Assembly (NCBI RefSeq): GCF_006345805.1
Contig: NC_043008.1
Location: 6,882,001-6,946,000 of the forward strand
Length of the DNA stretch: 64,000 bases
From: Octopus sinensis
Lineage: Eukaryota
Direction of reading: 5' to 3'
In this document: piece after piece, positions 59,790 to 64,000 of the stretch
Numbering within the stretch: the stretch's first letter is position 1
How the letters are laid out: the number at the start of each line of letters is the position of its first letter
Made by a program: the position numbers and the translations under genes
Notes under the pieces: generated by a model
Databases searched by the model: none
The model's input: the letters and a program-made list of their open reading frames with translations, nothing else
What the model was told of the DNA's origin: nothing

Positions 59790-61465
59790 GATGATAGCTG
59801 CCCCATCAACACACCCACCACACCCCATCACACGGTTCAATCACTCCGTTGATGAGAACCTTAGAAGACTTCTAAGACCAGCTGCTGACTGACAGGGTTT
59901 AAAACACAACTGACATATATTATTCACGTTTCTTCTATATATTTTCCCTTTGGAATTTGATTCTCAAGGAGTTTTTTTGTGAAGTATCATATGTCTTTCA
60001 AGTCCAGATATTGTCATACAAGTTTTTTGACATTTGACACAAGTCGTAAGAGGTGGTTGGTGTCATATCTGAGCATTTTGATTTTCATGTGACTTCATTT
60101 GCTTCGCGTATCCTGCTTTTGACAACAGAACACGGTCACATATAATACATATCCAATGTTCACCGTTGGTTTCAGTTCCAGTTGTTCCTTTGAGACAGGC
60201 CCTTTTAAGCTCAGAGTGCAGAAGCATCTTTTCCTCAAAGGCATTGCAACCAGTTCTTACAGCACCCCTCCACTTGTTCTGATCTAGAACCTCATTTTCC
60301 CAATCACTTTTTTCATATCTAGTTCCTTCAGGTTTTCCTTTACATAGTCTTTATACTTTTCCTCGGTATATGTTAAGGTCGCTTACCAGAATTGAGATCA
60401 CCATCAAAAAGACGCTTTGGCAATCGTTCGTCTTTCATTCTAATGACATGTCCAGTCCATCTCATTTGAGCCAAGATGACATGTTCAATTGAGCTGCAAC
60501 GTGCCATGCACAAAACCTCTGTAACTGGTATAAAACATTCCCACTTGACTACTAAGATACGTCTGAGGCACTTTTGATGAAATCTCTTGCATTTTTATAT
60601 GACGCTTGTAAGTGGTCTATGCCTCACCTGAATAAGTGCAGTCAATACACATGTTTTATATACATTTTTGTCCACCCATACTCCCCTCCCAAACATTCCA
60701 AATGCAACAATTCCCTATTCGATAGTATATCTCTGCATTAAGACCACCAGCTTTTCACAGTTTGCTTCCAAAGTAAACAAAGATATCAACGACTTCTAAT
60801 CTTGTTTCATTCACAAAATTTTGGTTCAGAATATGTTTGTCCTGGCGCGGGAGTAAACATTACTTTGGTTTTCCCCAGACTAATTGTGAATCCGAACTGT
60901 ACACATGCAGGAGAAAATCTGTCCATTATATATTGCATATCCCCCTATGAGTATGCCAACAAATCATCATCATCAGCGTAAAGTATTTCTCTAACAAGTA
61001 ATTTAAATGTTTGCAGTTAAACCGAACCAAATTTAAAATACGACCAGATGTCCCAAATCTGAGTCCTATTCCCCTGTTGCAATCCTTGAAAGCACACCAA
61101 AGCAATGCAGTAAAATAAATAGAGAAAAGTGTAGGGGCAGGAACATCTCCCTGTTTGACACCGTTGTCCACCGAAAATTCATGAGATCGCTCACCATTAA
61201 AGACTACCTGAAATTTTATGTTTCTCTGTAGTTCCTTAAAGATGATCACGCAACCAAGTTTACACAAAACAATCCACAGTGCCTCCCTGTTTACCGTGTT
61301 AAATGCCTTAGTTAAATCTATGAAGACCTGGTGTAGTGGCATTTGTTCCTCTAAGCATTTCTCTTGAACCTGCCGCACAGAGAATATCATGTCCATTGTT
61401 TCTCGCTCAGGCCTGAAACCACACACTTCTTTAGGAATCACATGTGGACACACATTCTCATCAAG
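59790..61465 (-). pseudogene. 5'-truncated, frameshifted RTE-clade (BovB-like) LINE: reverse transcriptase plus C-terminal region with two C2H2-like fingers
   Basis: ORF 60926-61516 contains CGFRPERETMDMIFSVRQVQEKCLE..FIDLTKAFNTVNREALW..GVKQGDVPAPTLFSIY. YADD is encoded at 60969-60980 in another frame. Downstream come RWTGHVIRMKDERLPKRLFDGDL and CVKCQKTC..ERHMILH / CQLCFKPC motifs. Confidence 0.9.
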
Positions 61466-61815
61466 ACGATATTTCTTTCTTACATACACACAAACACATA
61501 CATACGTTCCCATCATAATCTTGTGATAACCTACTTAAATAAACGAGTGGGTTGTTCATTTTGAAAATTGTTGTATTTATAAAAGAGTGAGAAGGAAGAA
61601 CATAAGATTTTAGTTCGGAAATCTCAATTTCTGCACTCGTGTTGAGTCGTTTATTACGGTAAATAGAGGCCATGTGTGTATATATACGCATACCTTCCAT
61701 ATGTTTATAAGTAGAATAGAATATATATTTATATATCTATTGCCAAACATATATATATACATGTATGTCCATAAATATACATATATATGTGTATACGTGG
61801 GTATATATGTGTATG

Positions 61816-61872
<57 letters not shown>

Positions 61873-62034
61873 GTTATCGCCATACTAATATGGTATTCTT
61901 ATAAAAATAAGAAAAAAGCTGTCCGCTTATTAGCTCCATGAGGCCATCGCCTTAAGTTAGCTATTTGATACACAAACTGTATCCATATAACCTTCGAACA
62001 GGGAGGTCAGTCGCTCCACACTACTTGACCGGCA

Positions 62035-62076
62035 GCTACAGACGCGTTTCGGGGTATTGCCCCTTTTCAATGCAGC
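62035..62076 (-). ncRNA. Minimal type-I hammerhead ribozyme, U3-A8 variant (inverted copy, intact core)
   Basis: Plus strand reads gctacagacgcgtttcggggtattgccccttttcaatgcagc, the exact reverse complement of 62420-62461. Confidence 0.8.
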
Positions 62077-62419
62077 GTAGCCAGCCAGTAGTGTCGCTTC
62101 CGACAATCTCTGTTCGATGGTTTTATTTACCTAGTTTCGGTGGAATACATCCACTTGTTTTCAATAATAGAAATATTAAAATAACTAAGTCCTCTCATGG
62201 AGCTAATAAGCGGACAGCTTTTTTCTTATTTTTATAAGAATACCATATTAGTATGGCGATACTATATTATTTTCCGGGAACGCTGCCGCTGTTCTCTTAG
62301 AGAGACTTAGTTATTTTAATATTTCTATTATTGAAAACAAGTGGATGTATTCCACCGAAACTAGGTAAATAAAACCATCGAACAGAGATTGTCGGAAGCG
62401 ACACCTACTGGCTGGCTAC

Positions 62420-62461
62420 GCTGCATTGAAAAGGGGCAATACCCCGAAACGCGTCTGTAGC
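62420..62461 (+). ncRNA. Minimal type-I hammerhead ribozyme, U3-A8 core variant (forward copy 1, best preserved)
   Basis: GCTGCA (helix I) - TTGAAAA (core 3-9) - GGGG CAATA CCCC (helix II) - GAAA - CGCG - TC (palindromic ACGCGT helix III; GUC site, predicted cut after 62455) - TGTAGC (pairs with GCTGCA, one G-U). Confidence 0.8.
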
Positions 62462-62782
62462 TGCCGGTCAAGTAGTGTGGAGCGACTGACCTCCCTTGTT
62501 CGAAGGTTATATGGATACAGTTTGTGTATCAAATAGCTAACTTAAGGCGATGGCCTCATGGAGCTAATAAGCGGACAGCTTTTTTCTTATTTTTATAAGA
62601 ATACCATATTAGTATGGCGATAACTATTATTTTCCGGGAACGCTGCCGCTGTTCTCTTTTAGAGAGACTAGTTTATTATTTAATATTTCTATTATTGAAA
62701 ACAAGTGGATGTATTCCACCGAAACTAGGTAATAAAACCATCGAACAGAGATTGTCGGAAGCGACACCTACTGGCTGGCTAC

Positions 62783-62822
62783 GCTGCATTGAAAGGGGCA
62801 ATACCCGAAACGCGTCTGTAGC
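62783..62822 (+). ncRNA. Hammerhead motif, forward copy 2
   Basis: gctgcattgaaaggggcaatacccgaaacgcgtctgtagc. One A and one C shorter in homopolymers than copy 1 (possible read error). GTC ends at 62816. Confidence 0.65.
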
Positions 62823-63138
62823 TGCCGGTCAAGTAGTGTGGAGCGACTGACCTCCCTTGTTCGAAGGTTATATGGATACAGTTTGTGTATCAAATAGCTA
62901 ACTTAAGGCGATGGCCTCATGGAGCTAATAAGCGGACAGCTTTTTTCTTATTTTTATAAGAATACCATATTAGTATGGCGATAACTATTATTTTCCGGGA
63001 CGCGCTGCCGCTGTTCTCTTTTAGAGACTTAGTTATTTTAATATTTCTATTTTGAAAACAAGTGGATGTATTCCACCGAAAAGGTAAATAAAACCATCGA
63101 ACAGAGATTGTCGGAAGCGACACCTACTGGCTGGCTAC

Positions 63139-63179
63139 GCTGCATTGAAAGGGGCAATACCCCGAAACGCGTCTGTAGC
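63139..63179 (+). ncRNA. Hammerhead motif, forward copy 3
   Basis: gctgcattgaaaggggcaataccccgaaacgcgtctgtagc. One A short in the core. GTC ends at 63173. Confidence 0.65.
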
Positions 63180-63501
63180 TGCCGGTCAAGTAGTGTGGAG
63201 CGACTGACCTCCCTTGTTCGAAGGTTATATGGATACCAGTTTGTGTATCAAATAGCTAACTTAAGGCGATGGCCTCATGGAGCTAATAAGCGGACAGCTT
63301 TTTTCTTATTTTTATAAGAATACCATATTAGTATGGCGATAAACTATTATTTTCCCGGAACGCTGGCCGCTTTTCTCTTTAGAGAGACTTAGTTATTTTA
63401 ATATTTCTATTATTGAAAACAAGTGGATGTATTCCACCGAAACTAGGTAAATAAAACCATCGAACAGAGATTGTCGGAAGCGACACCTACTGGCTGGCTA
63501 C

Positions 63502-63542
63502 GCTCATTGAAAAGGGGCAATACCCCGAAACGCGTCTGTAGC
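63502..63542 (+). ncRNA. Hammerhead motif, forward copy 4
   Basis: gctcattgaaaaggggcaataccccgaaacgcgtctgtagc. Core intact, one G missing in helix I. GTC ends at 63536. Confidence 0.7.
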
Positions 63543-63861
63543 TGCCGTTCAAGTAGTGTGGAGCGACTGACCTCCCTTTGTCGAAGGTTATATGGATACA
63601 GTTTGTGTATCAAATAGCTAACTACTTAGGCGATGGCCTCATGGAGCTAAATAGCGGACAGCTTTTTTCTTATTTTTATAGAATACCATATTAGTATGGC
63701 GATAATATTATTTTCCGGGAACGCTGCCGCTGTTCTCTTTTAGAGAGACTTAGTTATTTTAATATTTCTATTATTGAAAACAATGGATGTATTCCACCGA
63801 AACTAGGTAAATAAAACCATCGAACAGAGATTGTCGGAAGCGACACCTACTGGCTGGCTAC

Positions 63862-63902
63862 GCTGCATTGAAAAGGGGCAATACCCCGAACGCGTCTGTA
63901 GC
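63862..63902 (+). ncRNA. Hammerhead motif, forward copy 5
   Basis: gctgcattgaaaaggggcaataccccgaacgcgtctgtagc. GAAA reads GAA. GTC ends at 63896. Confidence 0.65.
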
Positions 63903-64000
63903 TGCCGGTCATAGTGTGGAGCGACTGACCTCCCTTGTTCGAAGGTTATATGGATACGTTGTGTATCAAATAGCTAACTTAAGGCGATGGCCTCATGGAG

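What the first reader, a model, noticed from the sequence alone, without database searches (positions are those of the whole stretch)
62426..62432. Rare compensatory U3-A8 catalytic core (UUGAAAA) in place of CUGANGA
Seen: the core reads TTGAAAA in the inverted copy and forward copies 1, 4 and 5; copies 2 and 3 have one A fewer. Established: hammerhead positions 3 and 8 form a Watson-Crick pair (C3-G8) needed for catalysis, and U3-A8 is a known but uncommon natural covariant. Inference: a double change that preserves this pair points to selection for activity. It also means plain CUGANGA motif searches would miss this family.
Basis: partly seen in the sequence, partly recalled or inferred. Interest (0 to 1): 0.8.

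Follow-up and report, generated by a model that had tools for sequence, protein, structure and literature searches.

The report
Retrozyme hammerhead with swapped core pair
A 361-base mobile repeat with about 1,600 copies carries a hammerhead-ribozyme fold whose key core pair is U-A instead of the textbook C-G (a swap already known from flukes), and this genome also holds families with A-U, G-C and unpaired versions, a likely natural series for testing how much that pair matters for self-cleavage.

Summary
Observation confirmed. TTGAAAA at 62426-62432 is positions 3-9 of a type I hammerhead in a ~361-nt tandem unit. It is the family norm: 1,613 genome hits, 0 with CTGANGA on the same stem II, 12 with one A fewer. 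Stems I-III covary across 26 subfamily representatives. The element is a non-LTR retrozyme with Penelope-type anatomy: tandem plus inverted arm, one tailed end, (TA)n target.

U3-A8 is not new: about 1,300 copies in Schistosoma mansoni Penelope-like elements (PMC4209133), and PMC3088659. It is not rare here: U3-A8 outnumbers C3-G8 4,846 to 463 under one descriptor.

What I could not find in print: sister subfamilies spread with C3-G8, U3·G8 or C3·A8, and a Neptune-like Penelope family switches between A3-U8 and G3-C8 (82 and 14 of 100 listed). All four Watson-Crick pairs therefore occur naturally in one genome. This supports selection on the pair, but mismatched cores also spread, so the constraint is soft. 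Cleavage is untested.

The parts
62426..62432 (+). Hammerhead core positions 3-9, U3 U4 G5 A6 A7 A8 A9 (copy 1)
   Evidence: family norm
62420..62461 (+). Type I hammerhead of copy 1: stem I 62420-62425/62456-62461, stem II 62433-62436/62442-62445 with 5-nt loop, GAAA 62446-62449, palindromic stem III 62449-62454, predicted cut after C17 at 62455
62417..62419 (+). Bulge 5' of stem I (T-purine-C in all three clades); likely partner of the loop II end in the tertiary contact (inferred; role recalled from canonical type I hammerheads)
   Evidence: alignment A1: T4 invariant, C6 nearly invariant, loop II penultimate-side A invariant
62041..62070 (-). Hammerhead core to C17 of the inverted copy, intact TTGAAAA
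62789..62816 (+). Copy 2 core: one A and one C short; likely assembly error or decay
63145..63173 (+). Copy 3 core: one A short
63507..63536 (+). Copy 4 core: TTGAAAA intact, stem I 5' strand one G short
63868..63896 (+). Copy 5 core: TTGAAAA intact, GAAA one A short
62194..64000 (+). Tandem array of ~361-nt units (5 copies in the window); continues 129 nt past the window to the tailed end at unit position 138, then (TA)n
61870..62196 (-). Inverted, truncated arm whose outer end lacks the ~61-nt tail (ends near unit position 77)
61749..61869 (.). (TA)n microsatellite target flank

Best explanation
The heptamer is the U3-A8 core of a type I hammerhead fold carried by every unit of a ~361-nt, ~1,600-copy tandem mobile repeat, a non-LTR retrozyme that likely self-cleaves as a dimer and is likely moved by a Penelope-like element's enzymes. 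Shown: the core, the stems and their covariation, the copy number, and the tandem-plus-inverted insertions with one tailed end in (TA)n. Inferred: multimeric transcripts pair two palindromic stems III into a double hammerhead, cut after C17 into ~360-nt monomers (possibly circularised), and are reverse-transcribed at (TA)n by a Neptune-type RT/GIY-YIG enzyme. The 3-8 pair is likely under real but soft selection: lineages drift between U-A and C-G through wobble or mismatch states that are still copied.
For: Covariation over 26 distinct representatives: 97.8% of cells paired, 8 of 14 pairs with two-sided changes, covariation score 0.545 vs 0.241 shuffled (0/500) and <=0.14 when slid. The 3-8 pair is UA 15, CG 5, UG 5, other 1 (related rows, so not independent). 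Core T4 G5 A6, A9, G10.1-C11.1, GAAA and U16.1 are invariant while N7 takes A, C or T, and the units are only 48-61% identical between clades. Stem III changes from one palindrome to another (CGCG, CCGG, CTAG, CTATAG, CTCGAG). The two-copy transcript folds into the double-hammerhead form as MFE (z -6.9). 21 of 30 insertions have one long and one short end on opposite strands, the pseudo-LTR/tail anatomy described for PLEs (PMC8557442). The largest U3-A8 family is the terminal repeat of an RT + CxxxxCxxC-linker PLE. A second Neptune-like family shows A3-U8/G3-C8 covariation and ends in the same 13 nt as this retrozyme's long end. Four RNA-guessed runs cover the unit at depth ~12-480 while the 1.9 kb flank is near 0.
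Against: No cleavage assay. Subfamilies with U3·G8 (360 descriptor hits) and C3·A8 (153) exist and spread, including tandem arrays. A family that makes up most of 855 hits has U3·U8 and no clear stem II yet is homogeneous and abundant, so amplification may not need a good ribozyme. In PMC9901934 only the G3-C8 swap rescued activity in their construct. No PLE homologous to this unit was found (best blastn E 0.014, AT-rich), so the mobilising partner is unidentified. The RNA status of the runs is a guess, and contigs cannot show cut ends or circles.
Confidence: 0.75

Rival explanations
1. The hammerhead is a passenger. The repeat spreads by PLE retrotransposition without needing cleavage, U3-A8 was fixed by drift and AT/CpG mutation bias, and the apparent pairing is inherited from a few founder copies.
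For: Mismatched cores spread. A degenerate U3·U8 family is abundant. Naiad PLEs lacking canonical hammerheads are very successful, and the authors suggest hammerheads may parasitise PLEs (PMC8557442). C7-G8 is a CpG in many subfamilies, an easy route to A8.
Against: Bias does not explain G3-C8 and A3-U8 within one family with few singles (82 A-U, 14 G-C, 2 G·U, 1 A·G, 1 U·C of 100 listed), nor two-sided changes in stems I-III while the catalytic positions stay invariant across units 48-61% identical.
Confidence: 0.17
2. It is a satellite or assembly artefact, and the heptamer is a chance look-alike or a homopolymer error.
For: Window copies carry 5-8 indels each against a copy from another contig. 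No Rfam hammerhead hit.
Against: 1,613 exact copies genome-wide with 0 controls; independent short-read contigs match across the core; dispersed insertions with fixed ends; covariation.
Confidence: 0.02
3. The unit is mobilised by a LINE (SINE-like) rather than a PLE.
For: An RT fragment lies 0.4-1.9 kb upstream in the window. A Tx1/L1-like element sits inside clade C units.
Against: No poly(A) or LINE-type tail. Paired long/short ends in opposite orientation within (TA)n match the PLE families in the same genome. The upstream fragment is not shared by other loci (flanks).
Confidence: 0.06

Closest known systems
Metazoan non-LTR retrozymes (Cervera & de la Peña 2020, PMC7229834, passages read; Li et al. 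2026 bioRxiv 10.64898/2026.07.22.740005, part 1 and passages read)
   Same: Non-coding ~170-400-nt tandem units, one type I hammerhead per unit with a weak palindromic stem III, proposed PLE dependence; ours is ~360 nt, GC 0.42-0.51.
   Different: Core is U3-A8 (no covariation term in the 2020 text). The fixed tailed/untailed inverted ends in (TA)n are not described in the passages read. circRNA not shown here.
PLE-associated hammerheads, S. mansoni Cercyon family Sm3 with U3-A8 (PMC4209133, main-text parts 1-2 of 4 and supplement parts 1-2 of 3 read)
   Same: Same covariant; the supplement alignment even lists the same UUGAAAA heptamer for S. mansoni (4) and a U3·G8 core for S. kowalevskii (1); dimer logic.
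   Different: Those are minimal hammerheads (extra nucleotide after A9, no real stem III) in PLE terminal repeats. Ours has a 6-bp stem I, 4-bp stem II and conserved bulge/loop nucleotides in a non-coding tandem unit. None of their 56 representatives starts AUGA or GUGA.
Natural U3-A8 hammerheads of Perreault et al. 2011 (PMC3088659, section 8 read)
   Same: First report of natural C3-G8 to U3-A8 covariation; cites earlier in vitro activity of swapped pairs.
   Different: 'Several examples'; no A3-U8 or G3-C8 named in that section, and no within-family series of intermediates.
Neptune/Nematis-type Penelope-like elements (PMC8557442, passages read)
   Same: Tandem plus inverted 5'-truncated arms, a tail at one end, (TA)n preference, hammerhead near the 3' end.
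   Different: The unit has no ORF, and its tail is ~61 nt (clades B and C ~45-55) vs 30-40 nt described and ~36 nt in the local autonomous family.

Membership tests
Type I hammerhead ribozyme | Three stems around a core U4 G5 A6 N7 x A9 / G12 A13 A14 A15.1 / U16.1 H17, open at stem I | tested here: met
Type I hammerhead ribozyme | Watson-Crick pair between positions 3 and 8 | tested here: met
   U-A in this family (98 of first 100 of 1,525); C-G, U·G and C·A in sister subfamilies
Type I hammerhead ribozyme | Match to an Rfam hammerhead model | tested here: not met
   no hit at gathering or E<=10; not a defining biochemical feature
Type I hammerhead ribozyme | Site-specific self-cleavage after H17 | not testable with these tools
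   no assay; contigs cannot show ends
Non-LTR retrozyme | Short non-coding tandem unit with one type I hammerhead per unit, many dispersed loci | tested here: met
Non-LTR retrozyme | Palindromic weak stem III allowing a double-hammerhead fold | tested here: met
   (prediction)
Non-LTR retrozyme | Transcribed and accumulates as unit-length circular RNA | tested here: inconclusive
   RNA-guessed contigs cover the unit, not the flank; no confirmed RNA run; circles cannot be told from tandem copies
Non-autonomous Penelope-like element | Tandem/inverted arms, tail at one end, microsatellite target | tested here: met
   21 of 30 insertions with one long and one short end; (TA)n flanks
Non-autonomous Penelope-like element | Sequence homology to the terminal repeat of an autonomous PLE | tested here: inconclusive
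   only 24 PLE-type loci compared; no real homology, 13 terminal nt shared with one Neptune-like family
Autonomous Penelope-like element | RT plus GIY-YIG ORF | tested here: not met
   the insertion is ~2.26 kb made only of the 361-nt unit between (TA)n flanks

The most novel reading that the evidence does not exclude
This genome preserves a complete natural walk across the hammerhead 3-8 pair: amplified mobile families with C-G, U-A, A-U and G-C, plus transposing U·G, C·A and G·U intermediates. U-A has displaced the canonical pair about tenfold, and at least one lineage appears to have returned from U-A to C-G through a C·A state. Natural A3-U8 and G3-C8 cores would be unreported, active hammerheads, and CUGANGA-based censuses would have missed most hammerheads of such genomes.
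Probability: 0.45. Interest if true: 0.68.

Novelty: new variant of a known kind. Interest (0 to 1): 0.47.

Why it matters
The flagged U3-A8 swap is itself published and would score low alone. The surrounding families make an open question testable with natural sequences: how strictly a catalytic RNA's core pair is selected in vivo, and whether compensatory change passes through wobble or mismatch states that still replicate. Near-identical subfamilies (89-96% alike) differ at 3/8, so kinetics can be set against copy success. It also bears on whether PLE hammerheads are needed for transposition. Practically, a CUGANGA descriptor sees 463 of about 6,100 3-8 variants counted here (sum; raw hits, two slightly different descriptors), so hammerhead censuses of animal genomes may be large undercounts.

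Tried and rejected
Rfam: nothing at gathering over the window; only spurious miRNA hairpin hits from the inverted repeat.

Second hammerhead-like motif inside the unit (62331-62369): rejected. Older clade A relatives lack its GAAA and clades B/C lack the motif; only the hairpin is kept.

'Consensus lacks A9': rejected.

Autonomous partner: blastn of two units against 24 PLE-type loci found no real homology. A protein search gave 150 scored of 18,101 candidates; of the 30 loci fetched, 10 had an exact descriptor match (7 A-U, 2 G-C, 1 A·C) and 20 were decayed or variant.

Trees: the tree of 16 A-U/G-C loci was unresolved, and the label was no more clustered than shuffles (67 of 200), so the number of A-U/G-C switches is unknown. 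A first clade B tree lost most U·G rows to a narrow pattern and was redone (6 of 66 loci dropped by filters, one long-branch row kept). The indel tally over 29 other copies was out of register and is not used.

Expression: no RNA holder listed as certain.

Papers not held: PMC1986816, PMC4447102, PMC5785218, PMC2151028. Published kinetics of 3-8 swaps and the ~150,000-variant PLE hammerhead survey (size recalled) were therefore not read; either could already contain A3-U8/G3-C8. Supplements of the bioRxiv preprint were not seen.

Earlier-finding look-ups returned nothing.

Full report
OBSERVATION. The window ends in a tandem array of a ~361-nt unit (62194-64000, 5 copies, 95% matches), preceded by an inverted arm (61870-62196) and a (TA)n tract. 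The array ends 129 nt past the window, again in (TA)n. TTGAAAA stands at 62426, 63507, 63868 and, on the minus strand, 62070; copies 2 and 3 have one A fewer. The heptamer is in hammerhead register: 6-bp stem I, 4-bp stem II with a 5-nt loop, GAAA, palindromic ACGCGT, C17 at 62455. Rfam finds no hammerhead.

IS THE CORE REAL? Yes. 68 of 70 cores from 30 best-hit loci have the full heptamer, and the two short ones are this window's. Genome-wide, TTGANAA on this stem II occurs 1,613 times and CTGANGA 0 times. With positions 3, 7 and 8 left free there are 1,525 hits, 98 of the first 100 being U3-A8. The short A-run occurs 12 times. Window copies carry 5-8 indels each against a copy on another contig, so copies 2 and 3 are likely assembly errors or decay. 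Contigs of eight public runs list no deletion in the run, and several span the core with 0 differences.

WHAT THE ELEMENT IS. It is dispersed over many chromosomes at 96-98% identity (40 of 942 candidates scored). 21 of 30 insertions have two oppositely oriented arms, one ending at unit position ~138 and the other at ~77, almost always in (TA)n; 5 had one typed arm and 4 could not be classed. This is the pseudo-LTR/inverted-copy/tail anatomy described for Penelope-like elements, with (TA)n bias linked to the CX2-5CxxC linker (PMC8557442, passages). With one type I hammerhead per non-coding tandem unit it fits non-LTR retrozymes (PMC7229834, passages; bioRxiv 10.64898/2026.07.22.740005, part 1 and passages). 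A two-copy transcript folds as MFE into the double hammerhead with a 6-bp stem III from the two palindromes (z -6.9; this includes the defective copy 2). Four RNA-guessed runs from four studies cover the unit (depth ~12-480 in most bins) while the flank is near zero. That is suggestive only, because the RNA status is a guess and the unit is high-copy.

U3-A8 IS KNOWN AND IS NOT RARE HERE. Perreault 2011 reported natural C3-G8 to U3-A8 covariation (PMC3088659, section 8). Cervera and de la Peña 2014 found ~1,300 U3-A8 motifs in S. mansoni PLEs; their 56-sequence supplement alignment has three UUGA starts (two U-A, one U·G) and none with A3 or G3 (PMC4209133). One descriptor, run with each pair, gave in this genome (backwards control in brackets): U-A 4,846 (37), C-G 463 (23), U·G 360 (27), C·A 153 (20). 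A slightly shorter version gave A-U 250 (43) and G-C 68 (14). The commonest U-A motif belongs to an autonomous PLE with RT fragments, DKG and YLDD motifs and a cysteine linker (motif names recalled).

SISTER SUBFAMILIES. The unit has ~360-nt relatives in three clades, 48-61% identical between clades. Over 26 distinct representatives, 97.8% of cells pair and 8 of 14 pairs show two-sided changes; the covariation score is 0.545 against 0.241 shuffled and at most 0.14 slid. Two measures did not beat the shuffles: pairs with two-sided change (60/500) and number of pair types (498/500). The 3-8 pair is UA 15, CG 5, UG 5, other 1. Rows are related and hand-picked, so this is not a probability. The older clade A layer is 53 U-A, 2 C·A, 2 U·G, 1 U·U of 58. 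Clade B has 371 hits; my hand tally of the first 100 is U-A 54, C-G 27, U·G 12, C·A 6, A·A 1, with the states largely tied to their own loop II sequences and each of the four main states seen in tandem arrays. Clade C is U·G with U17. A tree of 60 loci with positions 3, 7, 8 masked needs at least 10 state changes. U·G occurs in at least three separate amplified groups, and the C-G subfamily is sister to an amplified C·A subfamily (100/98) among U-A rows. That suggests U-A to C·A to C-G, but the root is a midpoint or a distant outgroup, and the ladder shape may reflect recombination, so the direction is inferred only.

ALL FOUR WATSON-CRICK PAIRS. A search for purines at position 3 exposed a Neptune-like PLE family (cysteine linker, GIY-YIG E 6.5e-4, below Pfam's cutoff) whose terminal motif has stem I, a 2-3-bp stem II, GAAA and ACCGGT. 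Its core is A3-U8 in 82, G3-C8 in 14, G·U in 2, A·G in 1 and U·C in 1 of the first 100 of 105 hits (hand tally); further G-C and A-U subfamilies with changed stem II appear. Searches for 'G3-C8/A3-U8/G3C8/A3U8' and '3-8 pair' wordings found only an engineered G3-C8 mention, and 'hammerhead ribozyme' plus 'octopus' found nothing relevant. Four key papers were not held, so novelty here is provisional. This family's 3' end shares its last 13 nt with the retrozyme's long end, a weak, AT-rich hint at the kind of partner.

AGAINST A STRICT READING. Mismatched cores spread (above). A homogeneous PLE-like family, the bulk of 855 hits, has U3·U8 and no clear stem II. In a pairwise mutational scan only the G3-C8 swap rescued the core (PMC9901934, passages). 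PLE hammerheads cleave slowly in vitro (PMC4209133).

VERDICT. A real, family-wide, previously described core variant in a new retrozyme family (confidence 0.75 for the mechanism; cleavage untested). The flagged fact alone is ordinary. The natural series of 3-8 states around it is the part worth following. Interest 0.47.

Noticed in passing
L126-L141, L146-L175 (e.g. L129:1033-1081 minus, L135:1016-1064 plus): Neptune-like PLE family whose hammerhead core covaries A3-U8/G3-C8, with very short stem II; 250 and 68 descriptor hits. Not found in the papers read.
   Followed up: partly
L063:1870-6720 and L064:1760-5880 (approximate): A Tx1/L1-like LINE (EEP endonuclease, RT, zf-RVT) starts at the same point of the clade C retrozyme unit, just 5' of stem I, in two loci; L063 shows an ~18-nt duplication around it. 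Possibly a LINE that targets the retrozyme, or one composite that was copied.
   Followed up: partly
L142-L145: Abundant, homogeneous PLE-like family with a degenerate hammerhead-like motif (U3·U8, no clear stem II), inverted arms 0.2-2.8 kb apart and ORFs of 500-570 aa with no Pfam hit.
   Followed up: partly
L052-L055: Autonomous Neptune-like PLE whose terminal repeat carries the commonest U3-A8 hammerhead in the genome (A17, tail ~36 nt); frames broken in all four loci.
   Followed up: partly
window 62331-62369 and each unit: A second hammerhead-like string starting exactly at the element's long end; its GAAA is absent in older relatives, so likely chance, but the hairpin is conserved in clade A.
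   Followed up: yes
window 59900-61500, minus strand: Broken LINE-like reverse-transcriptase fragment (190-aa stretch with RT-like motifs, recalled); Pfam scan not completed.
   Followed up: no
L095:922-976: Deep-branching member of the ~360-nt superfamily with canonical C3-G8 and a 6-nt palindrome in stem III; useful for rooting.
   Followed up: no
L076-L080, L085: Subfamilies whose stem III is no longer a perfect palindrome (CCTGGG, CCTGG) yet form tandem arrays.
   Followed up: no
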